DNA of 63,281 nt, filler included, from Dimorphilus gyrociliatus (taxonomy: Eukaryota > Animalia > Annelida): NCBI GenBank assembly GCA_904063045.1. It is 7 parts of 7 records of this genome, joined end to end, with 100 filler letters (N's around TTAATTAATTAA, not from the genome) between each part and the next. Parts side by side here need not be neighbours in the genome. Positions count along the whole stretch, not along the records: positions 26,389 to 41,951 come from CAJFCJ010000037.1; 6 more parts are not named here. The stretch is one strand, 5' to 3'. The translations under genes were made by a program, and so were the position numbers. Positions 17,801-54,800 of this stretch are shown piece by piece. Under the pieces are notes generated by a model that worked only from the letters and a program-made list of their open reading frames with translations, had not been told where the DNA came from and ran no database searches. Positions within the stretch are counted from its first letter, which is position 1. Each line of letters opens with the position of its first letter.

Positions 17801-18053
17801 TTTTACAGTTTAAAAATAATTTTTGATATTAATATAAATAAATATATTTTTATATTTAACGATTAGTGTCTTTTTTTACAGACTGTATATACTAATTAAT
17901 AATGTTTATATATTAATTCAAACAATATTAGTGTTTATTTACTATTTATATATAAAAGTATATTATTAAATACAAACATGCTAAATAATAGTATTTATTT
18001 AATAATAACAATGAAAAACTATAGATAAAAGATAAGTATATATTACATATTTA

Positions 18054-18581: not shown

Positions 18582-18589
18582 AGGGTTTG

Positions 18590-19175: not shown

Positions 19176-19187
19176 AATATTTTTAAT

Positions 19188-19439: not shown

Positions 19440-19449
19440 TTACCCCACT

Positions 19450-19988: not shown

Positions 19989-20581
19989 TTGATATCATAT
20001 TAGAATTTTTTAATCAATAAAGTATTTTTTAATATACAAATTAAATAGGATTATAATATTTTTAAAGTTAATTTTATGCACAAATTAAAGAGTATTATAA
20101 TATTTCTTAAATATTTTTTTAAAGTTAATTTTATATACAAATGAATTATTTTATAATATTTTTTAAAGTTAATTTTATATACAAATAAATTATTTTCTAT
20201 ACAAATTAAAAGTTATTAAAGACCTATTTTTACCTGAAAACGTTTTGTTATTTTTTCAATAATTAAATTAATTGTATTGATTTATTTCACAACAAAGGTA
20301 AATTTTTATTTCAATTTTTAAATTTTATTAATCAATAAAAACTCTTCATTTCTATTTAATTTAATTCTATTTGTTAAATTTTTATAAACTGTTTTTTTTT
20401 CTGCTACAAATTCTATTTGAAAATTGTCCAATTGTATTTCTATATTCTTATATAGATTTATATAAACATAGTGTTTTAAAAGGTACAGTTACATAACTTA
20501 TATTATAATTGGTATAGTTTTTTAACTCAAAACACGAATGTATCAACAAAAAGTATAAATATTCTGAATATTGAGAATATC

Positions 20582-21609
20582 ATGTTAGGTGAAATGTCAA
20601 TACTTTTCCTGCTAATTAGATCAATATTCTCAAATAAGAACAACTGTATGCAAGTTTGCTCCGGTGGCGGAGGAGGTTCCGGCCATGGATTTGGAGGTGG
20701 CGGCGGCGGTTTTGCCCCACCACAGCCCGTAGCTCCACCAGCTCCAGTTTGTAATTGTTCAATGGGAGGCGGCGGCTTTGGAGGCTTCGGAGGAGGCGGT
20801 GGTTTTGGAGGTTATGCTCCACCACCAATGGTTCCTATGGTTCCACCACCTATGTATGTAACACCACCACCTATGTATGTAACACCACCACCTGCCCCAC
20901 CAGCTCCACCAGTACAGCCACCAAGCCCACCAAGAGTTATTACATCAGTTAAAACACCAGATGAACCAATAACTAAGTGCTCAAGTAGAATGGTAGTAGA
21001 TTGTGAAACAATGACCCCACCAGATCAAACATTTAGTATTACTGTACCAGGAGACCCAACACCACCTCCTGCACCACCAATGCAATTTACACCACCACCA
21101 CCACCAATGCAAGTAGTACAGCCACCACCTCAATATGTATGCCACCACCACCTCAATATGTAATGCCACCACCAACACCAGTAGTTCCAATGGTTCCTAT
21201 GACAGGAGGCGGCGGCGGAGGTTTCGGTGGTTATGGAGGCGGAAGCGGCTTCGGCGGCGGAAGTTCCCCATCATCAGAATGTGCAAGTGTATGTACAGAA
21301 GCAAAGCCACAACCACCACCTAAACAAATAGTAGTACAAAAACAACAGCCTAGACCACAACCACAACCACAAAGACCAGCTGGAGGTGGCGGCGGTCAAA
21401 CCTGCATGTGCTTTAACCAAGGAGGACAGTTCTCTAACTTTGGAGGAAACACCGGAGGAGGTCAAATGGGAGGTGGACAGCAATGTATCACCGAAGAAAG
21501 ATCTGATAGAGATGATTGTTTAATTTCAGGAAATGTACCTTATGAAATGGTTGGAAATCAGCAAGTCCCATCAATGATTCAAAACACCGGAGGTAGTTGC
21601 ACTTGTTAA
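20582..21609 (+). CDS. Secreted Pro/Gly/Cys-rich protein, probable polar tube protein 1 homolog; one missing base at ~21139 splits it into two ORFs
   Basis: Hydrophobic N-terminus; poly-Gly and PPPxY repeats. The repeat CCACCACCTCAATATGTAATG occurs once as ...GTATG (one A lost), so restoring it gives one ~343-aa ORF. Central TKCSSRMVVDC and C-terminal LISGNVPYEMVG...SCTC resemble recalled PTP1 motifs. Confidence 0.6.
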
Positions 21610-21889
21610 ATTAAAATGATTATTTTATAAATATTTATTAAATACAGATTTAATGATATAATATATGTATATAATACAGATTCAGTGACATAGTATTTTA
21701 ATATAACACAGATTCAATAATTGTTTTTATTATATAAAATTAATATATAACAAGATTTGATATAGTGTTTAATATAAAAATTTAATAATTTAATATAGTG
21801 TTTAATATAAGAGTTTAATATAAAAATTTAATAGTTTAGTAGATTTTTAAGTAGAATTTATTTTTTTTCTAATTTTAATATTTTTTTTT

Positions 21890-22777
21890 CTAAACAAAAA
21901 CTTTTCTATTAATTTCCGTTCTCAACTCAATCATTTTATTTTTTAAAATTTCAAATTCACTATAAAATTCATTTTCTAATAAATTTTCTCCAATTTCTAT
22001 TTCTTCATATATAAATAATTTACAATTGTTATATTTTATTAATTCTTTATAATCATTAGTTTCTAAGTTATATTTAATTATTAAATTGTTATAAATTAAG
22101 AATTCTTTATTATTTGATAGAAATATATTAAAATTTAAAAATGGAATGTTTATTTGTTTTATTATTTTATAATTTTGTGGATTTAAAACTAAAACTTCAC
22201 TTTTTGTTTTTATTAGAATAAATGAAGAATTTTTATCTGTTTTAATATCAAGTACCTTTCTGGAAATTTTTATTTCCTTATATATTGTTTTCATTTCTCT
22301 AATATTTAATATAAAAATTGATTCTTTATCATTTAATATAAATAATAAATTATTTACTAAAAATACATTTTCTATAGTAAATGGTGATTGAAATGTTAAA
22401 TCTTTATATAAAATTATACTTTTATAAACAATACATATTTTATTATCAAATATTAACAATTTTATAATTTTATCATCTTTGTTTAATTTTAAAATACTTT
22501 TTGTAATTTTATTATTTACAGTATCTAAACTAAAAACACTACTTGTATGAATAAAATAGAAAAAATCATTATTATATATATAATTTCCTATATTAGAAAT
22601 TATAAGATTATTTTTCTCTATATCATATATACTATTAGAATAAATACCAAATAGTTTATAATTTGAATTAATAAAACACTCTTCATAGGATATATTACAT
22701 TTTAAAGATTTAAATAATACATAATCTCTATATATTGATAATTCTTTATTTTCATTTAAAACTATATTTAATATCAT
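21890..22777 (-). CDS. Hypothetical beta-strand-rich (beta-propeller-like) protein with a short C-terminal coiled coil
   Basis: Intact 295-aa intronless ORF; ACCCT before the ATG. Confidence 0.65.
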   Translation of the reverse strand: MILNIVLNENKELSIYRDYVLFKSLKCNISYEECFINSNYKLFGIYSNSIYDIEKNNLIISNIGNYIYNNDFFYFIHTSSVFSLDTVNNKITKSILKLNKDDKIIKLLIFDNKICIVYKSIILYKDLTFQSPFTIENVFLVNNLLFILNDKESIFILNIREMKTIYKEIKISRKVLDIKTDKNSSFILIKTKSEVLVLNPQNYKIIKQINIPFLNFNIFLSNNKEFLIYNNLIIKYNLETNDYKELIKYNNCKLFIYEEIEIGENLLENEFYSEFEILKNKMIELRTEINRKVFV

Positions 22778-23005
22778 AGGGTAGTTTTTTAATATTAAAA
22801 TTTACACCTACTAAAATAAATATTATTTATTATTGTTATTTTGTATTACATACAACAGTTGACTTATAATGTTTTATATTTTTCTGTATATTTTGTATTT
22901 TTTTATTTCTTAATATTTTACTTGATTGAAATCACTTAAAATAATATTTATATTATTAAGAATAGCTTGTATTTTATATAATTTATATTAATATATTCTT
23001 TTCTT

Positions 23006-24146
23006 GGTTTATGGGTATTATAAGGGATTTTTGGAAAAATAAGGGATTTTTGAAAATATTAAGGATCCCCCTTATAAATATGAGTTATATTAAAAATAAA
23101 AAATTTATCCTACCAACCAGTGAAATTCTCAGTTTTACTGAAATATATAGGTTTAAACTTGCATTACATGATATAGATCAATTAACTGATAAACAGGAAG
23201 TTATTGAGTTTATGTCTAAGTTCAAACTAATCAACAATTTTCAGAAGTGTACTAGATGTAATAGTCATATGCATTTGGTTGAAGATAAGAGTAAAGTTGA
23301 TGGCTTTTTTTTATATGCAGACTTTGTAACGAAAAAAAATCCATAAGATTTGGAAGTTTCTTCTATGGTTCTAAATTATCTTTTATAACTTTATTAAAGA
23401 TGATAAGTAAATTACTGTTCAGCATCAACAAGATGGTCATTGCCCATGACCTTAACATAAATAGAAGAACAGTGTTAAAATGGAAGAAGATTATATTAGA
23501 GGCGATAGCCTATAAGATTAGAAATACAATGCAACCAATAGGAGGTGTGAATCTTGACGGAACACCAAAAATTGTAGAGGTTGATGAAAGCCTTTTTTTT
23601 AAAAGAAAATATAATAGAGGTAGAATGATTCCAAAGTCTTGGTATGTAGGTGGTATTGAACGTAATACTGATAACATTTTTGTAGTCGAAGTACCAAACA
23701 AGAACAAAAGCACATTGAGGTCGGTAATTTTAGATAATATAGCTAATGGTACCACTGTGATAACCGATGAGTGGGCTGCATATCGAGCTGCCTTTAGAGA
23801 CGATCCTAACTATCAACATGAAACTGTCAACCACACATACAATTTTGTTTCTCCTCTAAACAGAGAAATCCATACACAGAATATAGAGTGCTTCTGGAGT
23901 ACTTCTAAAAGAGAATTAAGAAAACATACAAAATGTAAGGATTTACAATTTTTGTATATTTTACAAGCAATTTGGTTTAGGAAGCATGATAAATTTAAAA
24001 GATTTAATAGTCTGATAATTTTATTCTCAAGCAGTGCATATGATAACTCATTTAATGAATTTAGATTTAATTAAAAAATTTACTATTTTTTTTAATTTTT
24101 TAAATTTCTAAATATTTTCAAAAATCCCTTATAATACCCATAAACC
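23006..24146 (+). mobile_element. Complete Merlin (ISXO2/IS1595-family DDE) DNA transposon with TIRs and 8-bp TSD
   Basis: TIRs GGTTTATGGGTATTATAAGGGATTTTTG (from 23006) and CAAAAATCCCTTATAATACCCATAAACC (ending 24146); TSD CTTTTCTT at 22998-23005 and 24147-24154. Confidence 0.93.
23080..24074 (+). CDS. Merlin transposase (Zn ribbon + ISXO2-like DDE); one frameshift in the poly-T at ~23305-23312
   Basis: CTRC...VDG then shifted frame FICRLC..KKSIRFGSFFYGSKL; IVEVDES.F.KRKYNRGR, W.VGGIER, I.NGTTVITDEW.AY, H.TVNH..NFV, HTQNIE.FW. Confidence 0.9.
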
Positions 24147-24509
24147 CTTTTCTTAAATTTTCTATATATAAATAAATATTGTTTTCTTAAATTTTCTATA
24201 TATATTAAAGTACTATTTTCTTAAATTTTAAAATATATTAAAGTACTATTTTCTTAGTTTATATTGTTTTTAGAGATTTCTCTTTTACTTTTTTTACAAA
24301 ATACTTTCGATCTTAAAAAAATAATAAGTATTTATTTTTTTAAATTTAAAATAATAAAACTTTAAATCCAAATATACACTTTTTTTAAGTATTTTTAAAT
24401 CAAACTAAAATTAATTAAAAAAGGAAATTCTAATAAAATATTCAGTTCTTATGAATAATATACCAAAATTGGAAACAATCCATATAAAGAAATAATATTA
24501 ATGGAACCT

Positions 24510-25320
24510 ATCCTTTTATAGTAAAAATGATATTTTTTTTATTTTTCAATAAAATTAGAAAATAGAAGTATATTTATATTATTGAGTATTAAAATAAAAC
24601 TACCTATTTATAGAAAAAATGATATTTTTTTATTTTTCAATAAAATTAAAAAATAGAAGTATATTTATATTATTGAGTATTAAAATAAAACTACCTATTT
24701 ATAGAAAAAATGATATTTTTTTATTTTTCAATAAAATTAAAAATAGAAGTATATTTATATTATTGAGTATTAAAATAAAACTACCTATTTATAGAAAAAC
24801 ATGTGAATTTTTTTTTATTTTTCAATAAATAGAAGTATATTTATATTATTGAGTATTAAAATAAAACTACCTATTTATAGAAAAACATGTGAATTTTTTT
24901 TATTTTTCAATAAATAGAAGTATATTTATATTATTGAGTATTAAAATAAAACTACCTATTTATAGAAAAACATGTGAATTTTTTTTATTTTTCAATAAAT
25001 AGAAGTATATTTATATTATTGAGTATTAAAATAAAACTACCTATTTATAGAAAAACATGTGAATTTTTTTTTATTTTTCAATAAATAGAAGTATATTTAT
25101 ATTATTGAGTATTAAAATAAAACTACCTATTTATAGAAAAACATGTGAATTTTTTTTTATTTTTCAATAAATAGAAGTATATTTATATTATTGAGTATTA
25201 AAATAAAACTACCTATTTATAGAAAAACATGCGAATTTTTTTATTTTTCAATAAATATTCTTATAATTAATATTATTGAGTATTAAAATAAAATTACCTA
25301 TTTATAGTAAAAATGATATT
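24510..25320. repeat. Tandem minisatellite, ~85-91-bp unit, about 9 copies
   Basis: Unit TACCTATTTATAGAAAAACATGTGAATTTTTTTTATTTTTCAATAAATAGAAGTATATTTATATTATTGAGTATTAAAATAAAAC recurs at ~24601, 24692, 24782, 24867, 24952, 25037, 25123 and 25209. Confidence 0.92.
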
Positions 25321-25455
25321 TTTTTACATCACCAAGTAAAATTAAAAAATATCTTATAATTTATATTATTTGTATTATTAAGTGATATAAATATTTATTA
25401 AGTAAATTGCTATGAAATAGAAATTGAAGGTGTTCTTATATAAAACCCTTCTTAT

Positions 25456-26288
25456 ATGACTAAAAATAAATTTGTATATATAAAACTAACAATCGCTCTT
25501 TCTATTATTATTTTTACTATAGTAATTCTAAAATACTTTGAAATTTGTAATAAAAAAGAAGATTTGAATATAAAAATAAATAATTTTGAGTTTCTTTCTA
25601 ATTCTAATAATTCTAATAGTACTATTTTAATAAGAAATACCTCTAACTTTGATTCTAATAATTCAAAAGATGATAAAAATTTAAAAAATAAAAATTATGA
25701 ATATATTAATTTAATCAATAATAATTTATCACATGATAATCTAATAGATAGTAATTTAATAGATGATAGTTTAGAAAATAATCTAATAGGTAGTAATATT
25801 AATAATTTAGTAAATAATGAATTAGAAAATAATTTATCAGATGATAATCTAATAGATAATAATATTAATAATTTAATAGATGATAGTTTAGAAAATTTAA
25901 TAGATGATAGTTTAGAAAATCTAATAGATGATAGCTTAGAAAATAATCTAATAGATAATAATATTAATAATATTAATAATTTAATAGATAATAATATTAA
26001 TAATTTAATAGATAATAATATTAATAATTTAATAGATAATGAATTAGATAGTAATTTAATAAATGATAATCCAATAGATAGTAATTTAATAGATAATAAG
26101 TTAATAGATATGAATTCTAGTTATATAGATTGTTTGATAGATTCTCTAATAAAAGAACATTATAATAACTCAATAGATAATAATTTAATAGATAATGAAA
26201 TTAATAATTTAAAAAATTTAATAGATAATAATTTAGAAAATTTAATAGATAATAATCAATTAGATAAAATTAATTTAATAGATGATAA
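25456..26288 (+). CDS. Asn/Asp-rich repetitive protein with an N-terminal signal/anchor; 3'-truncated
   Basis: Hydrophobic LTIALSIIIFTIVILKYF followed by NLIDN/NLIDDSLE repeats; AACCCT motif upstream. Confidence 0.75.
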
Positions 26289-26388: not shown

Positions 26389-27350
26389 GAAATGGAAACG
26401 CACTGGGGAGTTACAGACTCTAACCTTCAACCCAGAATCCAACAATTACAATTCAGCAGCAGGAATGTCAGAAGGCAACAAAGACTAATTGAAGACTATG
26501 ATAGATTGGTGAGTGAAATGAAAAGAAATCGAATCACAATTCAACAGATCATGGAGATGGAACACTCACCCAGCACAGAACCCAATGTTGATATCACAAC
26601 AGTAATTCAAGCATTAAGGGCTGCTTGGGACGCCTCAAAGAACTATTCTCAAGTTGTATGATGGAAGCAAGGAGTGTTCAAAATTCAAAGAAGACTTTAA
26701 TCAGGCATGTTATGCTTATGGTTGGATAGGAGAAGATGTTGTGAAAGCAAATCTTTTAGATTATTTAACTGGTCTGCAAAGGATTTGGTGTTGGCTCTGG
26801 ATGGAGAGCTACTGTGGAGGAAATATGGAAAGCCCTCCATGACGAATTTGATCTGATCCTTTGGAGTATCAGAGAAATTGCTTAACTTAAAGCAAATGAA
26901 TGGCGAAAGTGTGGTTCAGTTTGTTAATAGAGCAAAGAAATTGATAAAGAGGTTTTCTCCATAGACAATGGAACCACTTGCTTGCAACTATGAAAGAAAT
27001 AAACTGATGGAAGTTTTACAAAGAGGATTACAACAGGATATTCTACATTTAGTGTACACTTACATCAAATGTCAAACATTGGCAGAACTATATGAGGCTG
27101 CTAAGCAAGCAGAAACTTCATTAAAACTAACTCAAAGAAAACGATACAATGGTGTCAAAATTGGAAACTCAACAAAGAAAGAGACCAAAAAGACCAGGTA
27201 ATCAGAAAAGATGCTTCTACAGAAACCCAAATTTTCTGGAATAGAAAGCATGTACTGACAACAAAAATGCTACTAAAGAAAGTTTTCAAGCCAAAAGTCC
27301 AAAAGTATGCACCAACTACAACAATAGGTATTATAAGAAAATCAACCAGC
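26389..27350 (+). pseudogene. gag: Gypsy gag (fragmented)
   Basis: YDGS..C..F...F...C..YGW......L..YLTG...W capsid-like motif; degenerate knuckle-like segment near 27300. Confidence 0.65.
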
Positions 27351-27489
27351 AAAGACGATACTGAAAGAGGAACCTAAGCTACAAAATTAGAAACTTAGAC
27401 AATGAAGCATGTCAGAAAACGACGAAGTTCAAGATATTCTCTGTTTTTCAGATAGTGACGATCCACTTGTCAGCTGTTACAAGCAAACA

Positions 27490-27830
27490 ATCTGAGCGAA
27501 ATGCTTCAACATTTATTGGACAATTTGAAACTAATACTGGTTTTAAGTTTGATGCTTGATAGACTCTGGTAGTGACAGATCTTTCATTTCAAAAAAGGTA
27601 TTAAGACAAGTTCAAGGAAAAGCATCCTTCCAGAACAAACTGTGAAAAATGCTAGAGATGCTTCAGGAAATAGCATGAGATATGTGGAGAAATCATTCTC
27701 AGACTTTATTTTAATGAAAGATTATTAAACAACGCTTTCTGATCAACAAAATCATTACACAAAATGTATTATTGGGTGTGACTTTCTACAACAAAATGGA
27801 GCTACCTTGATTTGGCAAGAGACAGATTAT
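27490..27830 (+). pseudogene. Gypsy aspartic protease 1 (canonical position)
   Basis: LIDSGSDRSFIS (DSG at 27562-27570) and ILGCDFLQQNGATL (~27770-27810). Confidence 0.85.
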
Positions 27831-27968
27831 ACTCCAGCAGGTACAGAAAAGAATTACCTGTTGGAAACAACATTATTTTCAAAGGGTTTTACCCAGTTCT
27901 CTTATTATGAAAAAGAATGAGAGTCAAATACATACCTTCAGACAACAATTGAACAAGAAAATCCCGAG

Positions 27969-29340
27969 ATGAAGAACAAAGTTACCCAAATTCTGGCAAA
28001 ATATAAAGAAACTATTGCAGAAGACAGATTTGATATTGGCAATCCAGAGGTACCACCCTTGGAAATAACTCTTGAACCAGGTTCAACACCATATAGACAA
28101 AGGCCATATAGAATGCCTCCTCAAAAACAAGAAGAATGTAAGCAACAGATAGCTGAATTGGTAAAAAGCAAAGTTATTCAACCAAGCAAGAGCAATTGGG
28201 CTTCACCAATTGTTTTCGTAAGAAAGAAGGAAGGTAGTCTACGAATGTGTGTAGATTATAGAAAACTAAACAAAATGACAGTTAAAAACAAGTATCCACT
28301 GCCAAATCAAGATGATCTTTTTGACCATTTGGGAGGAGGAAATAAATTCTTTTCTACAATGGATTTGACAAGTGCATACCACCACATTAACATCAAGAAA
28401 GAAGATAGGTCTAAAACAGCATTTATTACACCTTTTGGCTTGTTTGAATTTATTAAGATGCCTTTTGGATTTAACCAATGCCCCTCCTCATTTCAGTTAT
28501 GTAATGAATTATTTGTGCTAAAGGATGTAAGCATTTGTGCCTAAAACTACCTTGATGACATAATAATATTTACCAAGTCGTGGACCAACATTGGGAAGCA
28601 TTGGAGACCATTCTTCAACAGATTCAAAAGTACAAATTTTAAGATTAAACTAAGTAAATGTGTGTTTTTGAAAGAACAAGTTCCAATTCTTGGGACACAT
28701 TGTATCAGAAAAGGGGATTGAAACAGATAAGTCCAAGACAGATAAATTATATAATTTACAGCCACCAGTGTTTGCAAATTCACTACTAAGCTTTGTTGCT
28801 TTTGTGGCTATTACAGAAAATTTATACAAGATTTTGCAAGAGTAGCTAAACCTCTGTATATGTTAATGAAACTACATGGGAAAAAGGATAAATTGCAATG
28901 GACTGAGGAAGCCAAGCAATCATTTTTCAAGTTGAGAGATGCAGTAGTTAACCCTCCTGTATTACAACTACCTGATTTTGCTAAAGATTTTCATTTAACA
29001 ACAGATGCATCGAATGTAGCTGTAGGAGGAGTTCTTGAACAAGTTTATGTAGATGAGAATGGGAAGAAAACAATGAAACCCATTGCCTACGCTTCAAAAC
29101 AATTCAACAATAATCAAATGAAATATGCAGCCTATCAAAAGGAAGCATTTGGTGTTTACTGGGTTGTAAAGAAATTTTTACATTACTTCAAGACAAGCCA
29201 TTCTTTTTTATATACTGACCATCAGAGTCTAGTACAAACATTTAAGCAAAACAAATTGAATGTCAGCAACAGCAAAATGGGTCATGGCTTTAATGGATTT
29301 AAAATTTACAATTAACTATGTGACAGGACGAAAAAATAGA
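27969..29340 (+). pseudogene. pol: Gypsy reverse transcriptase + RNase H (frameshifted)
   Basis: WASPIVFVRKKEGSLRMCVDYRKLN, YPLP, KTAFITPFGLFEF.KMPFG, YLDDIIIF (28548-28571); LTTDASNVAVGGVL, PIAYASK, LYTDHQSL. Confidence 0.95.
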
Positions 29341-29559
29341 GCAGATGCATTAACAAGATTAGAAGAATATACACCCCAAGGAAAGTAACATTTGAAGAGC
29401 TAATTCATGGAAAGATCAAAAGGAGAATTCTCCCTCTATTTCAGTTAAAATGGAACAGTATGAACATACACCAGAGTTAACTTTTGTAGCTACCAGTGAT
29501 AACAGTGAAGAGAAAATTGATTTGTCTTTGTTGACTTACAGTCAGAGCAAGAAAAAGAT

Positions 29560-30780
29560 GTGAATTTAAAATCAATTAAAGAATATTTAACATTGGATGG
29601 TCAGCTACCTATTCCTTATTTTGGAACTTTTACACCTTTCATAATGGAGATGTTTGTTCACAAGGAAATGATCTGGATTATCCTTGAAGAAAGAAACATT
29701 CTGGTTTTACCTGACCATTTGATGCTAACTCTGCTCCCTAAATTCCATAAAAATAAAATTCACAATCACCATGGACCCAGAATGACATTACAAATAATTA
29801 CAAAGACCTTTTGGCACCCAAAATTAAAGATTATGATTGAGAATTCAATAAAGGATTGCACTTTGTGTGAACAAATGAATGGTAGGAGTAGAGTATACCT
29901 TTGGTAGAAACCTTTCACCCTGCATCACCAATGGAGTTGGTAGCCATGGATATAATGGGACCCTTACCCATGGTTAAGTCATACAGATTCATACTTGTGA
30001 TAGTGGATCATTTCAGTAGATACACAGTTTTATATGCACTCAAACAGCAAACCAGTAAAGAAATTGCAAACCTTCTTTTCAACAGATTTTTTCCCATTTT
30101 TGGAATTCCAAAACAAATGTTGACAGATCAAGGAAGAAACTTTGTTGGTAAAGCTTTTAAAGAGTTTATGAAGGTATTAGGTATTGAGAAAATCCAAACA
30201 ACAGCTTATAGAAGCCAGAGCAATGGACTAGTTGAACGAAGAAATAGAGAAGTGAGGAAGGAAATCAATAAATTAGTGGTGGAAGAAAATCAGCATAACT
30301 GGGTTGCAAACCTACCCTTGATTCAAGCATTTTTGAATCAATCACCTGTAGGAAGTACAAGACTACCACCCCAGGAACTTCTTTTTGGCACCAGCACAAG
30401 AACACTGATTGATGTAACAATGCATACTACCTCTTCCTGAAACAAATGTACTATTTGTATTCAATCACCAGCAGCAATTAGTACAGTTAAGAGCTACAGC
30501 CTTCTGTAAATCCATCATGGCAAAAGAACAATATAGGGAAAGAAAGAATAGAAATCTCAATCTTCCAAAATATTTTGAGGTTGATGATGAAGTATTCTTA
30601 AGAAATGATGCTGCAAGAATTGCCAATAAAAAAATCCCTTCTTTAAAATGGTTAGGCCCATACCGAATAACAAAAGTCAATCATCAAAAGTGGATATATG
30701 AAATACAATGGATTGATAATACATGCAAGTTGGTACATGGTAGCAGATTAAGACTAGCCAATGAATCTAATAAGTTGGAA
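29560..30780 (+). pseudogene. Gypsy integrase (HHCC, DDE core, GPY/F motif)
   Basis: H..HHG.....C..C; MDIMGPL, VDHFSRY, LTDQGRNF, SNGLVERRN; KWLGPYRITKV. Confidence 0.93.
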
Positions 30781-30849
30781 ACAGGGAAAAGAAGCAAACA
30801 ATCTTTCACCTTGTGGAGAAGGAAATAACACACCTCCATATCTTTCTCA

Positions 30850-31800
30850 GGTAGAAGGAAGAAATGACTTCCAATTCCGTTTGAAGAATCAAAAAGGCAA
30901 GAAGTCATTGCCTTGTGTGACACAGGAGCATTGAGATCCTTTATTACTGAAAAAGAAATCAAGTTAATGGATGTTACAATTATGGATAAAGAAACAATTG
31001 GCTTACCAATTATAACTTCAGCTGATGGGAAAGCTTTAAAGCAAAAAGGAAGCGTAAAGCTGAATATCCAATTTGCTGGAGAAAGTATGGAACAAGAATT
31101 TATAGTTATGGAAAATCTAGACATAGCAATAATACTTGGTTGTGATTTCCTACAAACTGTGGGAGCAAACCTCAATTTTGAAGCTAAACAGTGTTCTCTA
31201 AATTTGATAGAAGGAAAGGGAACCTGGCTGAAAGAATAAGGCAACCTCAACTAAACAAAGTCACTATAGCCATGATGGGACAGCATGACTCTTCATCAGA
31301 AAGTTCAGATAGTGATGACTCAGAGATGGAAGTTACTAATTCTGATACTGGTTATGACACAAGCAATACTTTCAAACAGACAGTAATTACAGTCTCAATG
31401 AACCTTCAAGCTCATCTGAAAGTGATGACAAGAAACAATAATGAACTGGATCAAAATACAGATTCAGAGGCAAACATTATCTCTGATAGAGAAGATGAAT
31501 ACTAGTTCAGACGATGAGTCAATAATTATTGAAAGCAAATTATTGATATAACCCATTCGATAATGAGTCAATAATTATTGAAGGTGAAATTATTGACATA
31601 ACCCATTCGATATGAGTCCCTCATAGTGGTAGATTCATCCCAAGATGAGAAAGAAAATACAAGTGACACAGACAATGAGTCAGTCATATTTTTAGATGAG
31701 ACTAAAATCATCTCTGAACAATTAGATTCCCAACAAGAAGTGGAACCCAATATATAGAGTTAGAAGATGGAATAACTATCAGAGTGGAACAACAACAAAA
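30850..31800 (+). pseudogene. Second retropepsin-like aspartic protease plus acidic Ser/Asp/Glu-rich linker, downstream of integrase
   Basis: EVIALCDTGALRSFI (DTG at 30919-30927), IILGCDFLQTVGANLNF; acidic tract ending YIELEDGITIRVEQ; homologous to 52885-53830. Confidence 0.88.
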
Positions 31801-31841
31801 ATTTTCAACCATTCAACTATAGCCACACAGGAAGAGCTAAC

Positions 31842-34231
31842 ATGAAACAGATGTTGTGGCTTCCATAGTGATGACTGTAATGGTGATCTGTGGCTGCATC
31901 CCTCAATAACAGTCCCAAACCATCCTACCAAGGTGCCCTGTTACAAGTGCAAACATTACCTTAACATTTAAACCACCGTTATACTTTTGTTCTAACCAAC
32001 TACCAAGCCAGGCATTTGATCTAGCAGATGAGCCAACTTGTAATATAGAATCACAAGAAACCAAGACATTACAGCTGATATCTATGAATTGAACTTGGAA
32101 GAAATTGAAACAAGAGCAGTAAAATGTCAAGTGTATCTAAGAACTAATTTTTACACTTACTATTCTTTGGAGCAAAGAAGAGGAGGATTGTTAACTCAGT
32201 TATCAAAGTAACTCATGATCAATGCAGACAGATGATAAAAGACAAACGATCTTTTCAAGGAAACCTTTAATGGTGAAAAGAAACACTTGGATCCACCAAG
32301 ATCAGTTTCCTGCTGCCTACACATGGCCAACAACGACCAAGGTGCTGGAATACACCACAATTATCCAGTTTGGCCAAAGCATATTGGCAACCTCCTAATA
32401 TGAAAATTACAACTAATCTGGACTACCTGGAAGATTGTTTACCAGGGCAGTCCTATTGTGAAACAGAAGAGGCAATTATTGTCTTTAGGAACCTCAAGAA
32501 TAATTACACACTTGGGCAACAATCACCATGGATAAAATTAGCAACAGAATTAGTTGTATCAAATTTGCTGGTCACTATTCTTGTCCAGGGTATTCTATTC
32601 TGGACATCCCTTATCAAGATAAGTTATTGATGGAATTGGTGGTCCTGGAACAAAAGTACTAGTACCACTGGAGGAACAGAGTTTAATACAGGAAACAAGC
32701 AAGGAACACCTATACAATTTGCTACAATATCAGAGATTGGCAAAAATGAAGAAAAACGACTATTAAACTATCCCAATAAAGTTAAAGAACAAATTATACT
32801 ATACAAGCGAAACAACCCCTTACCAAGTCTTAACCAATGGTACAGAGAAACAAACCACAAAGTATAAACTATGAGAAATAAAGGCACACTCAAGGAAGTT
32901 GTGATATATCATCTACAACAACCCATTAGTCCATCTTACTGGGAGCTGGATAACTATTATATCCAGAAATGCTGCAAGCAGTCAATTGGACAAGGGCAAC
33001 AAGACAATCTGTCACGATTTCAAAATATGTATACAGTGAGAAAAGAATCAAAAAGAAGGTATTACCAACATTGGGCATATGGTATAAAGGACCACCAGCC
33101 AGAGAATTTAAGATTACCTATGAAGGAATTTATTTTACTCTACACATGAGAATGGCTAAAAAGCAGATGAAGAAGGAAGCAAAACTGAAACATAAGATAA
33201 GTAAAAACCCATACCACAAATTCCCATTGGAAATGAGAGAAGCTGCCCAAACATCTACCTTACTACATGGTATTGATTCAAATTTTAAGAATTTAAAAAA
33301 GTTTACCCAACAGCTGTCAAGTCTTCTCTGCAATCAATTTGTTCCAAGAAGCAGAATGATGGCATTACTAGCAAATTTGGATCCTCAATTGACCACAGTG
33401 TTAACAAATGAGTTGGGAATGCACAGTAGTCAGATGGGAGAATTAGCTATAATTAAACAATGTTCACCAATAGCCTCAACAGAAGTAGTTTGTGACTTAA
33501 GCATGATAAAAAAGAATAACAAATGTTCTCAATTTTTACTTGTCACCATGAACAACCTGCTTTTCCAAGTAGAACCAGTTACTCATGTTTTACAGCAAGT
33601 CAATCCTGAAGAGATTACCTATAATGAGTGTAAGTCTAACAAGTTATTCTACAAAACAACTCACAACCCATTAAATCCTATAAGAAACCAACCAATGAAA
33701 GACAAAACGTATGTGTATTATTCAGAAAGAGGATGCAGATTTCACACTGTGTCTGCAAAATCCATGCAGTTACATATCCACAATCACCTTTCTGAACCAA
33801 AAATTGAAATTGCCAGATTAGCTGATCTACTCCACCATGGGGTAAAGAAGGATATTGCATACCAGCACTCAAAAATTAAGCAAGTTATCAGTTCACTGGA
33901 ACAGAAGCAGGCAAGGTATGATAACATGGTCACTGTTGCAGAGAAAAATGGCATTGTACCCAATTTATCTGGAATTAAAAAGTTTTTCCATAGTTGGTAC
34001 TATAAACCTGGGAAAACACTTTATGTTATCATACGAAATATTTGTTTGAGTATTGTAGTGTCAATGGTATGTATCATCATTTTCAACTATATTATTGGAA
34101 GAAGAAAACAAAGAGAAGAAATTGCTACCCCAAGTGAGAGCACAGATAACTCTCCTGAAAACCCAAAACTAATGAAACAAAGTTGTAGCTTTAGTCAACA
34201 TCAAACTAATGAAGAAGAACAACCACTGTAA
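31842..34231 (+). pseudogene. env: env-like class III viral fusion glycoprotein (herpes gB/chuvirus G-like), about 800 codons, frameshifted
   Basis: Signal peptide MKQMLWL/SIVMTVMVICGC. LYFC...F.L...P.C, VKCQV...YTYYSFGAK...DQCRQMI, AYTWPT (putative fusion loops). gB-like LC....R.MM..LA.LDP...QMGELAIIKQCSPI...V...C...LLVT. C-terminal TM LYVIIRNICLSIVVSMVCIIIFNYII followed by GRRKQR. Confidence 0.8.
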
Positions 34232-34267
34232 TTCTCATTAAATCAAGATGAAGGGACTCATCTTCAC

Positions 34268-34281
34268 AAAGAAGGGGGAAG
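34268..34281 (+). promoter_or_regulatory. Polypurine tract
   Basis: AAAGAAGGGGGAAG one base before the LTR TG. Confidence 0.9.
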
Positions 34282-34282
34282 T

Positions 34283-34917
34283 TGTACAACTTTGGTTATA
34301 TTTTACATGCTTGAACTCTATTATTTTATGCAACATATACATGTACATCTTAAAACCTACGCAAGAAAATGCTATAACATTGGCCAAACATAAGTCTGAT
34401 TAGTCAGCTTGAAGGTTCATCTTTAATTACCAATAAAGGTTTGGCCAAGTTATAATTTAATTAACTTGCCTAGGGTGTGGCCAAGTTATAATTCAATTAA
34501 CCTTCCTAAATGTTGAACCTTGTAACATCCTGTTACTAAAGATAAATATGAACTACACATTTCGGCAACTGTAAAGTGATGATTGGATGTCAGAGACAAA
34601 CCTCAAAGTATATAAATCCTCATTATTCTCATTTGGCATGCAGCTTCCATCTGGACCCAAGGACCTGGGAAAATCATCTGGAAACAACCTCCACTGGAAC
34701 CATCCATCTACTCCTCAACATTGGAAGACAGTTTGGTAATTTGGCAACCTGCTATTACAAACTATCTACTCTGCTATTGAACTCTCATATTGTTACTTGC
34801 TTAAGTATTATTATTGCGAATAAACCATTTTAATTTAAACATTTGTTTAAAGGTTCGAGTAGAACCAGTATTGTTATAACTTGCAAACGCATAGATTTTG
34901 CCAGCAAGAGCAGTACA
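34283..34917 (+). repeat. 3' LTR (635 bp, TGTAC...GTACA)
   Basis: Starts TGTACAAC after the PPT and ends CAGTACA; TATA-like TATATAAA ~34609 and AATAAA ~34819; matches the copies at 36157 and 41460. Confidence 0.92.
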
Positions 34918-35182
34918 ATATTTATATATATATGCATAGAAATTACTAATTAAAGGCTAAAGCACTATCCTAATGTTGGCTTAATTGTAGATTTGTGGCA
35001 TTTTCTTATTCTAATTAACAAAATTAGATCAAATGTTTGGACAAGAAAAAATACTGACAAGTCAGCAACATTAAATGTTTATTATACTTTCTCCCCGATC
35101 CGCCCACTCTCCCCCGCCTCTTCCTCTTAAGCAACTAACATTCATTTTCAAAATAACAATAATTATTAGCAAAACAAAAGCA

Positions 35183-35364
35183 GGGTCCACAGAAAATGTC
35201 CACAAATGAGAAATTTCAAGACTAGATTTTGAATTGAGAAATGGTTAGGAAGAAGATAGCAACTGATATGTACTAAGGAGGGTCTCCTCTAAGGGTTAAG
35301 GCTAATGGAAAAGGTTAGGGTTAGGGTTAGGGTTAGGGTAAAAGCACTGATTTGTGGATGTTTT
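35183..35364. mobile_element. TTAGGG-bearing MITE, copy 1 (right TIR clipped)
   Basis: CACAGAAAATGTCCACAAAT...(TTAGGG)4 at 35315-35338...ATTTGTGGATGTTTT; reverse complement of the 55767 copy. Confidence 0.8.
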
Positions 35365-35550
35365 AAAATGATAAAAATTCATGGAACTATTTGAAAAGAC
35401 CATTTGCAAAGGTAAGAGTTATTTTTCTACATTTGAACTAATTGTTTTTCAAATATTACAAATTGTTTGTACAAGACGATGTTACGAGGGATGATTTGGA
35501 TTTTTTTCTATTTTCCCATTGGGTTATATTCAACTCAATTTATGCATGTA

Positions 35551-35770
35551 AATTTGGCGGGGCCGACAGAAAACGTCCCCAAATGAGATTTTTGAAAGCA
35601 ACATTTCGGATTGAAAAATGGTTAGTAGGGGTAAAGTAGCTTTTGATTTATAGTTAGGGGGGTTCCATCTAAGGGTTAGGAGCAATCAAAAAGGTTAAGG
35701 AGAGACAAGGGCTAGGTTAGGGTTAGGATTAAATCATGAATTTGGGGACGTTTTCTGTCGTATCCAAATT
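35551..35770. mobile_element. TTAGGG-bearing MITE, copy 2
   Basis: Perfect 21-bp TIR CGACAGAAAACGTCCCCAAAT (35564-35584) / ATTTGGGGACGTTTTCTGTCG (35740-35760); internal GGTTAGG repeats; outer AATTTGG/CCAAATT. Confidence 0.85.
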
Positions 35771-35826
35771 CGGCATATAAACAATCAACAAGCACATCTA
35801 ATTTATACCCAACTAGTTTACATCAT

Positions 35827-36132
35827 TTGGCTGTTAATAGAGAATTTAGTCCTTTATACCAACCTGATGAAAGATGTAGTCAAGAAAAAGCACCATACTA
35901 TTTTATTCAACTTGACAAATCCTATATTATAAAAACAATACGGATTTTAAATAAAGCAAGTGATCCTCAACTTTTGAGCAATATAATTATTGGCACTCAA
36001 TTAACAAAAGATGTCTCTGTAACAGATTTTAGTAAATATCAACAATTTTCAACAATTGCTGGTGGCGTCTTACATTTTAGAACTGTAACAATGTACTATA
36101 TTGAAAACCTCATTATGCCAGTTCAATTATAA
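35827..36132 (+). CDS. F-type lectin/discoidin-like exon fragment, ending just before the LTR at 36157
   Basis: C..EKAPYYFIQLDKSYIIKTIRILN....LSNIIIG resembles the FTP C..T...PWW.VDL..Y.I..V.I.N motif. Confidence 0.45.
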   Translation: MAVNREFSPLYQPDERCSQEKAPYYFIQLDKSYIIKTIRILNKASDPQLLSNIIIGTQLTKDVSVTDFSKYQQFSTIAGGVLHFRTVTMYYIENLIMPVQL

Positions 36133-36156
36133 TTTATAGAAATGAATGTGGCATAC

Positions 36157-36345
36157 TGTACAACTTTGTTATATTTCATGTTTGAACTGTATTACTTTAT
36201 GCAACTTATATATATATGTCTTAAAACCTACTCAAGAAAATGCTATAACATTGTACAAACACAGGTCTGATTAGTCAGCTTGAGGACTCATCTTTAATTA
36301 CCAGTTAAGATTTAGCCAAGTTATAATTCAATGAACTTGCCTAAT
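36157..36345 (+). repeat. Truncated LTR copy (5' ~190 bp)
   Basis: TGTACAACTTTG...AAGAAAATGCTATAACATT...GTCTGATTAGTCAGCTTGA...CCAAGTTATAATT is collinear with 34283-34475. Confidence 0.9.
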
Positions 36346-39300
36346 GTGTACTTTGTTGTATTGTAATTGTAGGAATTTCTGCTTCTTCAGAACATTATTT
36401 GGCCTTTCCAATCATTTTTCAACTTACCAAAGTACTCAAACAAATAGAACCTTTCAAGTTCGTCCACATATAGTCTTAAGAAATACCAGTATTTTGTTTA
36501 AAAGTTTGTTAAGTCTTTCTAATGTACCCTTATATCTAAAGTCTAAGTATTGATATATCATTATATTAAGTGCACAAATATCCCTCTCTTTTAGGACCTT
36601 GCTTCCACGAAAGGTCTGGGACTTGTCACAATGACTCTATTACCTTCTTTTGTAAAAGTTGGATAGTTTTGAAGAGGTATTGCTTCTTGATCAACTTCCA
36701 TAGTTGAGTCTGTTGGGATCTGTAATTCCTTTTGTTGGTTTTGCTTTCCTTCTTTCTAAGTATTTCCAAAGTCTTTTCCTAGTAAGTTTGCTACATCTTC
36801 TTTCATATGCAATCCATAGTATGAATGAAGTTGCATGAATAATTATTGTTGGAAATGCAATGTTAATCAGCATTTTGGTTGGAGTTTTCTGTTAAAGCAT
36901 AAAACATTACAGAGAAATGAGTATAATTATGTTTTTGATCTCCCCAGTGGTTAGGCAGTAAATAATTTTTATAAACTATTAAAAACATTTACATTTTGAG
37001 TAAATTTCCAAAATAGTATTTAGGCCTAACCTGTAGAATGATTGGAGCATACAGGATTAGCTTGAAAAATCCAATGGCTATTAACAAACTGTGGATAACA
37101 TCCTAGAAATGTATTTTTTCTATATTTACAATAAGCAAGTGCTAAAGTCTAAATAAAAGAAATTGTAGAAATTTTACAAAAAAAAGACTATTGAAAAATC
37201 TAACACTAGTATAAAAAAGCTTTTTCTTTGTTTTATCAATAATAAGAGAATATGAATTTTTATTATATTTTCTACAAAGAAAATCATTTAAAATGTAAAA
37301 GTTTTCATTTTCTGAACATTTAAAAACTGTTGGAAATATTCTGTTTCTTTTTCGATACGAAGACATAAACTAAAAGTAATGCAACTGGAAATTGTCTTCT
37401 TAGCACTAAATGGTAAAATGAATTTGAATTTGTTTCCTTTGCTTCCAAATATAGTTTTGAATAAAAAATATATAACATTCTCCCTTAATAATTCTCCTTT
37501 ACCTTCAAGGTCAGAATAACTACAAAGAATATATTCATAAGAACTTTCAAGGTCATTTATTGATTTAAATAGAATTGTTGGTTTATTAGAATGTTTTAGA
37601 GATTTATAACAAACTTTTTTTTTTCAATAGAAACATATTTTTTCTGTAATGATCCACTTTGACTTTCTTTTAAGAAAATGTCTTTTTCTATGAATATAAA
37701 TTTGCATACGTCATCACTTTATTTTCAGTAATAATTTTATAGACATTAATCAATAAATGAATTGAATCGTATCCAACATATTTGCATAAATCTTTTTTGA
37801 ATATTTGTAAACCATTTTCATATTTAAGCCAAATATTTTTTGTTTCTTTATCTTGTTGAATAATTATAATTAGACCTTCAGCAGAGATTTCATTCTCTTT
37901 ATAATTTTAAAATTGCTTTCTGCTCAGATTTTTTAAACAATGAAAACATTAAATGTAAAAGATGTATAACTTTCATTATCATTTTCAATATTACTTAAAT
38001 GGAGAGAGATTTCCATTTTATTTAAAATTCACATGAAAATTTTGAATATTAAAAAAGAACCATTCATGAATATTTCAAATGGTAGAGTTATTTAATAACA
38101 TTTGTAATTTTACCTTCTACATTTATATAATAGGTTTTTTGCTAAAACATTTAGTATGTAGGCCTATTTGCACATTAATAAATCAAAAAATGATTTGGGT
38201 TTTAGAATTGGCTGTCGCGAGTGGAAAATGAATTTGGACAAAATACGATATAGAATTCTAGAGATTAGCATTGGTTTTATAAATTATTTTTCAAACTTTA
38301 TTAACAAGGTCAATTATCAATTAAAAATTGGACATATACTTAATTGACTAAAAGATATCAGTTTGCTGATATGGTTATGGTCTGCCAATCGCAAACCACT
38401 GTTTTTGTAAGCATATATTGTCCAGGAATTTTAAAGAGATTCTACTGAAACTTTCTACTTGAAAAGTTCAATGAGAAAATCATCAGGCCTTTGCTTGGGC
38501 TAGAGATATTTTTATATGAAATATGTCATGTCTTTATATTCCAGTGTAAGTACTAATATTTTGTATATGTGATTGTAATATTAAAAGCTACAAAGGAGTG
38601 TATCATTTGTAATTGTGTCATTCCGTCAAGCTCATCCAATAAGTCCTAAGAATTAGCAATGTGATAAATATATCTTTATATTTTATAACATTCTGTTGCT
38701 CTTAAATTGCAGACTATGAAGACATAGATAAATTAAAAAAAAATACATAGGGGATTTTCTGAGGAGTTCACCATCTGATTTCTGTTAACATGGCAGAGAC
38801 CAACTTCTAACCAAATGGCAGAATATGCATAGCAAATGGAGATGACTATTAAAACAAAAATTGTTGATTAAGTGGTTGTTGGAGGATGAATTCTTACTAC
38901 AAACATCTCAGGTCCACCTAGCTATGCTCCATAGAATTTTACTTATATTTCATATTCTTCTTACATATACATTCAGAATCTAAACACAAAGTCATTCTGA
39001 ATGTATGTATTCAAGTCTTTATAATGCAAAGCATATTGAATACATTCTTCAAACTTCATTCTTATGTTTTGAATAGTTGTCGGGTTTGTTGTCAATATTT
39101 AAACACCTAGGCCACTTTATTGAACTGTCTAAACACCACAAAAATGAATCAAATGGCAGAAAGATCAATACAAATAAAAGTTTTAACTGGATGATCTAGA
39201 CAATAAATCAATATATAGATTTAAACTTGGATTTATGGTTTATGAGATTTCAAAAAAACCTTGTGAGATCTATACTGAACACAGTTAGCTTGCACCGCAA

Positions 39301-40033
39301 AATCTCTCTTTGCTCTTTCTCTCTTTGACCGCTATTGTCATTGGCAAAACACCTGAACATTGGCACGACCTCTAGAATATTTTTTTAATAATTGAATAGT
39401 GTAAGAATGTTAAAAATGAATTGAACAGGATTCAACATTGAAAACTCTATTCGGTGTTTTTATATTCTATTTTATTCATTTATAATAAGTTTAGTATAAT
39501 AAATCTAGAACTCGTTAATAATTGAATGAGGAAGGCTTTGACCAAAAGATGAATAATGTAAAATTTTCTAACTTATTTGGATAAAGATTTTTCTCCATGT
39601 GTATTCTATTACGTTCAAGGATACTGTTCTGTTATTCTGGAAGAGTAATTTCTTCTCTGCCTGATCGTTTAATATTCCATTGTCTCTATCACTTTATTCC
39701 TATAGCTACTTCCATTTAATAGTCTAATTGTTTATTAGAAACCAGTCTAAACTTATTTATAGTTCTTTTATTATGAAAGCTATTTTCATAACAATAGCTG
39801 CTTACTTTAAATCATAAACTGGATATACAGGCTTGTCCTGCTGCCTGCAAGGTTGAATGCCTGAAAAATATCAATTTCCCGTAAGAATCCAAGTAAATAT
39901 CTGAACTCCTCCCACTTTTCTATATTGACAAAGATAGAGGGCCAGTGACATATTAATGGCCATACCATACCTATTAATTGCTAGTTTATGTTGCACATTT
40001 TTAGTCACAAGTTCTCTCAATTAAATTATCAAA

Positions 40034-41392: not shown

Positions 41393-41459
41393 ATATTTTC
41401 AAACTGTAGTGTCTGGAATACAGTATGAGTTTATGACAGTTGTTATTTTCAATACATAC

Positions 41460-52884: not shown

Positions 52885-54260
52885 TGTTTCAATTTTGAAT
52901 GAAAAATCATAATGGAAGAGAGGTCATTGCTTTATGTGACTCAGGAGCACTTTTATCCTTTATTACAGAAAAAGAAATCAAGTTAATGGACCCAAAATTC
53001 ATAAAGATGAATACCACTGGCTTACCAATTATTACTTCAGCAGAGGGAAATGCTTTAAAGACAAAAGGAAAAACCAAACTAAACATCCAGTTTGCTGGAA
53101 GAATTTTTTATTTTGGAAAAACTTGATATAGCTATAATTCTTGGTTGTGATTTCCTAGAAAATACTGGAGCTCTTTTTAATTTTGCAACAAAACAAGTTT
53201 CTCTTCCATTCTTTATCAGAAAAGGGGAACCAGTTAAAAAGTTTCTGCAACAAAATCAAAACCACCAAACCAAGTTTAGAAAACAAGGCAACATACAAAA
53301 AGTAACTGTTGGAATGATTGGACAACACTATCAAGAGTATGACACTCCTTCAGAAGTTTCAGATAGTGTGGACTCAGATATGGAAATTACTGATCCAGAT
53401 ACTGGATATGATACAAGCAATACTTTTGGTTCAAGCATAGTCTATGAGGAATTCCATGGCTTTGACTCAAATAGCAACTATGGCACAGATGAAACTTCCA
53501 GTACTTCTGAAGATTATGGTTCAGAAGCAAGTGCTGAACCAGACAATAACTCAGACTCAGATTTGGACTTAGTGAATTGCACAAACTCATCTGAAGAAGC
53601 AACTGACAACACACCTGATTCTGACAATGACTCAGTTATTGTTATAGATTCATCTGATGAAGAGACTGGCAATGCAACTGCTTCAGATAACAACTCAGTT
53701 ATTATCATTAATTCATCTGAAGATGAAGCTGAAAACACAACTGAAGAATTGGCTACAGAAATGGAAATGAAAACACAATACATAGAATTAGAAGATGGAA
53801 TAACTATCAAAATTGAAAAAGAACAAAAGAAGACTCCAACAACTCCTGAAATAGAAGAATTACAGCTGGAAAGTATTGAGTTTGAACATTTGTCTGACCA
53901 AAATGTACACAATATTAATTCAAATACAGTAGAAATTGACAATTATTTACATGTGTCCAAAAATAATCTTGACAAAAGCAGAGAAGAATTATAAGACATG
54001 ATCAAGAATTATGAAGACATTATTGCTACAAATCAAAATGATATTGGTTCACCAGATGTCCCACCAATGGCAATTGAATTATTGGAAGATGTGAAACCTT
54101 TTAAACAAAGACCATACAGATTACCACCCAACAAACAACAGGAATGCAGGGATCAACTTAATGGATTACTAGAGAACGGTTTAATTAGAGCAAGTAAAAG
54201 CCAATGGGCTTCACCAATTGTTTTTGTGAAAAAGAAAGAAGGAACATTGAGAATGTGTGT
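52885..54260 (+). mobile_element. Gypsy pol fragment (protease - acidic linker - RT start) inside the outer MULE, no LTRs
   Basis: EVIALCDSGALLSFI (DSG at 52938-52946), IILGCDFL, ~240-aa acidic tract, then KQRPYRLPP..WASPIVFVKKKEGTLRMCV cut abruptly. Confidence 0.9.
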
Positions 54261-54800
54261 ATTATGGGAATGTATTGGATACACCACAAAATATAAATCT
54301 TAACTTCCATATAACAATTATATTTCTAAGAAATATGTAAATTCTATATCCAATAACAAATATTCACAAATTGAAATTTTAATAACCTTTTTTCCACATC
54401 TTATGTACATAGTCAACATTTTCTCCAGTGAATATTTTACACAGAGCATGTTTTCTCCAGTGGACATTTTCTCCAAACAGTGGACATTTTCTCCAGTGGA
54501 CATTTTCTCCACAATTCGTATTATATGTTCAATACTACTTAATAATGAATAGGATCTAAGACTTCAAAGAGTCCATAATAAACAATTAATTAAAGTCATT
54601 ATTATTTGGGTTTATAAGTTTATATATTAATCATATTGTAAAATTCAAGTTCAATTGTAAATTGCAAAATTTAGCTTGAAAATATGTTGCCACGCCTTGT
54701 ACAGGCACCACCCTACACAAAAGTAGGTCAAGCCTGCTTATCTCTATATTAGCTATCAGCACAGTGCAATACTAGTTTAATACTACTTATCTGCAGATGT

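What the first reader, a model, noticed from the sequence alone, without database searches (positions are those of the whole stretch)
26389..34917. Ty3/Gypsy retroelement carrying a class III (herpes gB / chuvirus G-like) fusion envelope
Seen: the RT, RNase H and integrase motifs are Gypsy-type (ASPIVFV.KK.G.LRMCVDY, KTAF.TP.GL.EF..MPFG, GPY), not BEL/Pao-type. Between pol and the PPT/LTR lies a ~800-codon ORF with signal peptide, Cys scaffold, two aromatic loops (YYSFGAK, AYTWPT), the segment LC..R.MM..LA.LDP..QMGEL.II.QC.PI..V..C..LLVT and a C-terminal TM. Known: that segment parallels the herpes gB core (WC..Q..L...A.K.NP...MLGDV.AV..C.PV..V..CY..PLV). gB-like/chuvirus envs are described in BEL/Pao elements (Tas, Anakin), whereas insect errantiviruses use baculovirus F-like envs. 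Inference: this may be an independent env capture by a Metaviridae lineage, i.e. a candidate infectious endogenous retrovirus of an invertebrate. Related LTRs in two contigs suggest a multi-copy family.
Basis: partly seen in the sequence, partly recalled or inferred. Interest (0 to 1): 0.87.

Follow-up and report, generated by a model that had tools for sequence, protein, structure and literature searches.

The report
Known annelid retroelement with herpes-like envelope
This is a retrovirus-like jumping gene, most likely the already published Dingle element of a tiny marine worm, whose envelope gene is likely of the herpesvirus gB kind; the one detail my searches did not find described is a second protease gene lying between its integrase and envelope.

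Summary
Real, but already published. Pol is Ty3/gypsy (Pfam; best solved match Ty3 Gag-Pol). Public contigs bridge integrase to envelope and place a second LTR upstream of gag. Four measures match Dgyr_errantivirus_1 of Dimorphilus gyrociliatus (PMC13524379, listed ENV_HSV, 7 copies): primer site 12/12, its 4-base offset, LTR 635 bp, internal length 8048-8049 against 8049. A Gypsy with gB-like env was named Dingle in that species in 2020 (PMC7854359). The window's many frameshifts are likely assembly errors: all four runs laid share single-letter gaps against it. My own class III test failed (pLDDT 42.5, no fold hit), so gB identity rests on the papers. The published chromodomain was not found. 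The scan noted Gypsy with gB-like env before on other DNA.

The parts
26389..27450 (+). gag region, 5' end cut by the contig start, broken over three frames in the window
   Evidence: Position only; no Pfam family in any of 3 frames at E<=10. Contigs of runs X2 and X3 join it to an LTR end about 90 letters upstream of 26405.
27553..27810 (+). first aspartic protease (DSGS ... IGCDFL), canonical place before RT, split over frames
   Evidence: Motifs at 27562 and 27771; marginal tblastn match to the second protease, E 0.007; no Pfam hit
27921..28750 (+). reverse transcriptase, Ty3/gypsy type
   Evidence: RVT_1 1.4e-15; Ty3 Gag-Pol chain 7q5b E 1.7e-36 against 2.4e-10 or weaker for the Pr125Pol, MMLV and HIV-2 chains
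28755..29315 (+). RT connection and RNase H
   Evidence: RT_RNaseH_2 4.4e-28, RT_RNaseH 8.5e-26
29521..30828 (+). integrase: HHCC zinc finger, core, GPY/F-type C-terminal module
   Evidence: Integrase_H2C2 5.3e-10, rve 5.6e-14; weak Integrase_p58_C 0.11 and no chromodomain family
30868..31239 (+). second retropepsin-type protease (DTGA ... LGCDFL) after the integrase
   Evidence: RVP_2 1.5e-7, above its cut-off; 45 of 61 residues identical to the protease at 52917-53099
31240..31800 (+). acidic Asp/Glu/Ser/Thr-rich tract, homologous to the protease-RT linker of a sister Gypsy fragment
   Evidence: blastn 67% over 30869-31372 and 75% over 31694-31800 to 52887-53828; D+E 23-27%
31842..34231 (+). 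envelope gene, about 797 codons, broken over three frames in the window; likely gB-type class III fusogen
   Evidence: Signal-like start, cysteines and motifs; one homologue P0001 at 66% over the C-terminal part; gB type from PMC13524379 and PMC7854359, not shown here
34025..34096 (+). predicted transmembrane helix of env
   Evidence: Kyte-Doolittle 2.5-2.7 at residues 358-381 of the open stretch
34270..34282 (+). polypurine tract
   Evidence: Directly before the LTR
34283..34917 (+). 3' LTR, 635 bp, TGT..ACA, with TATAAA (34611) and AATAAA (34819)
   Evidence: the upstream LTR end differs at 0 of 140 letters in X2 and 3 of 257 in X3
52887..54264 (+). fragment of a sister Gypsy family in another contig: protease, acidic linker, start of RT; the lineage from which the second protease likely came
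   Evidence: its RT start is 53% identical to the finding's over 88 residues

Best explanation
This is a full-length, paired-LTR Ty3/gypsy retroelement, very likely a copy of the published Dimorphilus element Dgyr_errantivirus_1 (Dingle kind), whose envelope is likely a gB-type membrane-fusion protein that would let its particles pass between cells. Shown: Gypsy pol, linkage of pol, env and both LTRs, primer site, purine tract. Inferred from Ty3/gypsy biology: transcription from the 5' LTR, protease cleavage of Gag-Pol, tRNA-primed reverse transcription, integration. Inferred from Drosophila errantiviruses and untested here: env made from a separate RNA and used for soma-to-germline transfer. 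The second protease and acidic tract most likely came from a sister Gypsy family by template switching and ride along as a passenger. Most breaks in the window are likely assembly errors rather than decay.
For: Gypsy pol. Linkage: single contigs span 27717-33257 (X1), 29154-33512 (X3), 29988-33192 (X2); X5, of a second study, spans 28612-31784. Identity with the published element: the 12 letters after the upstream LTR in 3 of 4 runs equal its listed primer site, with the same 4-base offset; that 12-mer occurs in 26 of 1512 rows of the survey and only this row is gB-type and non-insect; internal length 8049 (X1) and 8048 (X3) against 8049; LTR 635 against 630 and 635. gB type: ENV_HSV in the survey; HHpred P>99, E<1e-29 for the Dingle env in PMC7854359. 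Assembly errors: of 125 gap rows 12 are shown, 10 of these fall in env, and all four runs of two studies carry all 10. Borrowed protease: 74% and 53% identity to the sister family's protease against a marginal match (E 0.007) to its own first protease; in the sister fragment the same protease and tract run into RT. Passenger: the main X5 contig lacks 60 letters covering residues 27-47 of the second protease, just after the catalytic Asp at residue 18.
Against: I could not compare sequences with the published element; the match rests on lengths and the primer site. The survey gives that element a chromodomain; Pfam found none here and the fold of that region was unusable (pLDDT 36.5). No call of mine showed a class III fold: no gB, rhabdovirus G or gp64 family in Pfam, no solved relative, AlphaFold model at pLDDT 42.5 with 0 Foldseek hits at E<=0.001. 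The runs that bridge pol to env and show the primer site (X1-X3) are of one study and may be the window's own source; no listed X5 piece crosses 31784-31825. The second protease keeps DTGA and LGCDFL, and dN/dS to the sister protease is 0.29 over 61 codons, which fits retained function, though the selection may predate the move.
Confidence: 0.88

Rival explanations
1. Same element, but the second protease works: it is kept as part of a protease-linker-env cassette and cuts the pol tail or the region before env.
For: Catalytic DTGA and LGCDFL kept, Pfam above cut-off; dN/dS 0.29 to the sister protease; the segment is present in all four runs laid and is needed to reach the published internal length.
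Against: The main X5 contig lacks 60 letters inside the domain; the element has its own first protease; an env with a signal peptide would be processed in the secretory path (established knowledge); whether it is in frame with pol could not be read from the window.
Confidence: 0.2
2. A sister family of the published element: same primer site and similar size but a different sequence, so a new member of a known kind rather than the catalogued element.
For: Chromodomain not found; at least two related Gypsy lineages are present (52.9-kb fragment; P0001 at 66%); X5 holds diverged pieces.
Against: Internal length agrees within 1 bp, and LTR length, primer site and offset agree.
Confidence: 0.08
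3. Assembly chimera or nested insertion: pol of one family joined by error or chance to the protease and env of another.
For: The protease and tract belong to a different lineage; the window has many consensus errors.
Against: Contigs of three runs cross both junctions and a run of a second study crosses the integrase-protease junction; the LTRs at both ends are nearly identical.
Confidence: 0.03

Closest known systems
Annelida_Polychaeta_Dgyr_errantivirus_1 (Chary and Hayashi, eLife 2026, PMC13524379, Supplementary file 1; ENV_HSV, 7 copies)
   Same: Primer site 12 of 12 and offset, LTR length, internal length within 1 bp, gag-pol-env order.
   Different: The paper assigns a chromodomain that I did not find. 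Its main text does not mention a second protease (one occurrence of 'protease', in a general legend), and its env is not among the 32 gB-type envs analysed structurally. Sequences not compared.
Dingle, Dinophilidae Gypsy-like elements (PMC7854359, Nat Ecol Evol 2020)
   Same: Ty3/gypsy LTR element with a protein downstream of integrase resembling CMV and HSV-1 gB; most abundant TE class of that genome.
   Different: Whether this copy is Dingle-1 was not tested. Extended Data Fig. 3d (domain map) could not be seen and may already show the second protease.
HSV/gB-type 'ancient errantiviruses' of other animals (PMC13524379)
   Same: Gypsy pol plus signal peptide, ectodomain and transmembrane env.
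   Different: 73 of 74 annelid rows of the survey are F-type; this one is the exception. No env relative but P0001 was found.
BEL/Pao elements with gB- or chuvirus-like glycoprotein (mosquito elements as cited in PMC13524379; Tas recalled, no call)
   Same: Same class of env by the survey's account.
   Different: Pol here hits no Pao family, unlike the Pao fragment at 2-1486.

Membership tests
Ty3/gypsy (Metaviridae) | Domain order PR-RT-RNase H-IN with Gypsy-type RT and RNase H | tested here: met
Ty3/gypsy (Metaviridae) | Paired LTRs, primer site, polypurine tract | tested here: met
   3' LTR and tract in the window; upstream LTR and primer site in contigs of X1-X3
Ty3/gypsy (Metaviridae) | Placement in an RT phylogeny | not testable with these tools
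   No reference set of Gypsy and Pao RT sequences could be fetched; ranking against solved RTs only
BEL/Pao (Belpaoviridae) | Peptidase_A17 / DUF5641-type pol domains | tested here: not met
   Absent from the finding's fragments, present in the control fragment at 2-1486
HSV/gB-type errantivirus | Env gene with signal peptide and C-terminal transmembrane helix, linked to Gypsy pol within LTRs | tested here: met
   the signal peptide is split over two frames and judged by eye
HSV/gB-type errantivirus | Class III five-domain fold with fusion loops and cysteine bridges | tested here: inconclusive
   Two-sequence model of the C-terminal 425 residues at pLDDT 42.5, no Foldseek hit; no profile hit; reported in PMC7854359 for the Dingle env
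HSV/gB-type errantivirus | Uninterrupted gag, pol and env frames | tested here: inconclusive
   Broken in the window; shared gaps in four runs suggest window errors; frames of the runs' contigs not determined
Dgyr_errantivirus_1 | Primer site and offset, LTR length, internal length | tested here: met
Dgyr_errantivirus_1 | Chromodomain after integrase | tested here: inconclusive
   No Pfam chromodomain in three frames of 30418-31901, but frameshifts can hide one; fold unusable
Dgyr_errantivirus_1 | Sequence identity to the deposited element | not testable with these tools
   No genome held; the supplement rows seen give coordinates, not sequence
Infectious endogenous retrovirus | Env expressed and fusogenic; particles transmit between cells | not testable with these tools
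   Needs RNA and bench work

The most novel reading that the evidence does not exclude
This lineage gained its gB-type envelope recently by recombination, as one protease-linker-env cassette taken from a sister Gypsy family, and the second protease still works: a two-protease errantivirus that records an envelope swap, and an exception to ancient vertical inheritance of env in annelids.
Probability: 0.15. Interest if true: 0.5.

Novelty: already known. Interest (0 to 1): 0.15.

Why it matters
As a discovery, little: the combination was published for this kind of element in 2020 and surveyed across animals in 2026. The second protease is the useful residue. It marks a recombination seam right at the integrase-env boundary of the only gB-type element among 74 annelid elements in the survey, so it offers a concrete place to test whether env moves between Gypsy families or is inherited with pol.

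Tried and rejected
Env homologue searches: none among 745-2125-residue proteins, one among 233-744-residue proteins; no locus in viral contigs or metagenome contigs. The profile search over representatives never ran (queue full at 7 of 7 tries) and the Atlas gave no answer, so distant env relatives are untested. PDB sequence searches with env: 0 hits, then 7 chance hits at E 0.21-2, six of them to a transmembrane segment. Phlebo_G2_C at E 0.029 and GP41 at E 0.25 fall on the C-terminal helical region, far below cut-off, and were rejected. Both folds were unusable; the Foldseek list from the first is noise. Search for long proteins with the integrase tail and second protease: 0 of 660 candidates; second protease in metagenome contigs: 0 of 596 stretches. 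No RNA holder listed; this says nothing about expression. Contig depth was not used as copy number. Literature on a second protease: 0 papers, one unread listing on crocodilian ERVs.

Full report
What is there. The window is a string of contigs joined by N spacers; the finding opens the contig 26389-41951. No genome is held for it. On the plus strand lie a gag-like region, a protease, RT, RNase H, integrase, a second protease with an acidic tract, an envelope-like gene, a purine tract and a 635-bp LTR. All genes are broken over three frames in the window. The quoted pol motifs are in place. The env is about 797 codons long but is no single frame: its longest open stretch is 425 codons, and the quoted YYSFGAK comes from two frames.

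Pol is Ty3/gypsy. Pfam finds RVT_1, RT_RNaseH, Integrase_H2C2 and rve and no Pao family, whereas a Pao fragment elsewhere in the window hits Peptidase_A17 and DUF5641. Among 23 solved sequences matched by the RT, the Ty3 Gag-Pol chain scores E 1.7e-36, against 2.4e-10 or weaker for the Pr125Pol, MMLV and HIV-2 chains. No RT tree was built.

Linkage. Seven public runs were listed, six holding the stretch, none on record as RNA. I laid four of the seven, from two studies. Single contigs cross from pol through the second protease into env in X1 (27717-33257), X3 (29154-33512) and X2 (29988-33192). X5, of the second study, crosses integrase to the acidic tract (28612-31784), but no listed piece of it crosses into env. 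In X2 and X3 the contig that holds gag also holds an LTR end about 90 letters upstream, differing from the 3' LTR at 0 of 140 and 3 of 257 letters. The element thus has paired, near-identical LTRs and is young. X1-X3 may be the window's own source, so they are not fully independent. The runs differ from the window by many single-letter gaps: 12 of 125 rows are shown, 10 of them in env, each of these carried by all four runs. The window's breaks are therefore likely errors of its assembly; I did not determine the frames in the runs.

It matches a published element. PMC13524379 (seen: abstract, introduction, results sections 5-8, first part of the discussion, methods 14 and 18, term passages; Supplementary file 1 parts 1-2 of 34 plus searches; file 4 part 2 of 3; no figures) reports gB-type env in Ty3/gypsy elements across animals. 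Its table lists Annelida_Polychaeta_Dgyr_errantivirus_1 as ENV_HSV with 7 copies, LTRs at 1669-2299 and 10348-10983 and a primer site at 2303. The letters after the upstream LTR in X1, X2 and X3 contain that 12-letter primer site at the same 4-base offset. The 12-mer is not unique: it occurs in 26 of 1512 rows, but the other 25 are F-type insect elements. From contig piece lengths, the internal region is 8049 (X1) or 8048 (X3) letters against 8049 in the table, and the LTR is 635 against 630 and 635. PMC7854359 (seen: term passages of the main text and of the review file; not its figures) had already named Dingle, a Ty3/gypsy of that species whose env matched CMV and HSV-1 gB by HHpred at P>99. 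The host is therefore likely Dimorphilus gyrociliatus or a close relative. One mismatch stands: the survey gives its element a chromodomain, which Pfam did not find here and a failed fold could not test.

Class III fold not shown here. The open env stretch has one homologue, P0001, at 66% identity. No Pfam fusogen family reached its cut-off, no solved structure matched, and a two-sequence model had pLDDT 42.5 with no Foldseek hit. The N-terminal half, which would hold the fusion loops, is too broken in the window to fold. The gB assignment rests on the two papers and on the identification above.

The second protease. At 30868-31239 a retropepsin (RVP_2 1.5e-7; DTGA) follows the integrase, then an acidic tract runs to about 31800, some 40 bases before the env start. 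The segment matches a Gypsy fragment in another contig (52887-54264), where the same protease and tract continue into the start of an RT, the normal position. The second protease is 74% (61 residues) and 53% (51 residues) identical to that protease but only marginally similar to the element's own first protease, and the two RT starts are 53% identical. So it came from a sister family and is not a recent internal duplication. Template switching between co-packaged RNAs is the likely route (inference). Whether env came with it cannot be told: the sister fragment has no env, and no further locus was found. For function: the catalytic motif is intact and dN/dS to the sister protease is 0.29 over 61 codons, but that selection may predate the move. 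Against: the main X5 contig lacks 60 letters covering residues 27-47. I read it as a passenger, at about 3 to 1. Three literature searches found no description, and 'protease' occurs once in each paper's main text, in unrelated passages; the Dingle domain map, which I could not see, may show it.

How it likely works. As other Ty3/gypsy elements (established knowledge): LTR-driven RNA, Gag-Pol processing, tRNA priming at the primer site, plus-strand priming at the purine tract, integration. The env has a signal-like start, a cysteine-bearing ectodomain, one transmembrane helix and a short tail; by analogy with Drosophila errantiviruses it would carry particles from somatic cells to the germline. 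The survey itself calls the entry mechanism of gB-type elements unknown. Expression and infectivity are untested.

Verdict. A real, young, multi-copy Gypsy element with a likely gB-type env, already known both as a kind and very probably as this element. The scan's earlier notes, unchecked, record the same combination in other genomes; none covers this place or sequence. What remains is the recombination seam before env in the only gB-type element among 74 annelid rows. Interest 0.15; the cassette-swap reading has probability about 0.15 and would merit 0.5.

Noticed in passing
window 1-63281: The window is eight contigs joined by N spacers. Those at 16766-26288, 42052-48503 and 61360-63281 are very AT-rich with short, closely packed genes (eIF3i-like WD40, glutaredoxin, DBF zinc finger). 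They may come from a second organism such as a microsporidian; this is my impression, not a test.
   Followed up: partly
window 20480-21609: Gly/Pro/Cys-rich overlapping frames with no Pfam family, in one of the AT-rich contigs; could be a spore or polar-tube-type protein (recalled resemblance).
   Followed up: no
window 2-1486: 3' part of a BEL/Pao pol (Peptidase_A17, DUF5641).
   Followed up: partly
window 23301-24074: ISXO2/IS1595-like transposase domain (9.6e-14), next to an 86-bp tandem repeat at 24474-25335.
   Followed up: no
window 49327-51939: Inverted and repeated pieces of a transposase-like gene with 16-20-bp subterminal repeats; no Pfam family at E<=0.001; Mutator-like by impression.
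   Followed up: no
window 35180-35768, 54805-54924, 55759-55968: A short dispersed repeat with TTAGGG runs, in direct and inverted copies; possibly a MITE.
   Followed up: no
window 7113-8456, 59527-60837, 16152-16664: Animal host genes: LDLa-LRR-7TM receptors and a polycystin channel fragment, consistent with an invertebrate host.
   Followed up: partly
run X3: A run with only 0.13 million letters of contigs covers nearly the whole element and holds a piece that matches from 31748 with unlike sequence before it, as the sister family would; a hint that both families are repeated.
   Followed up: no
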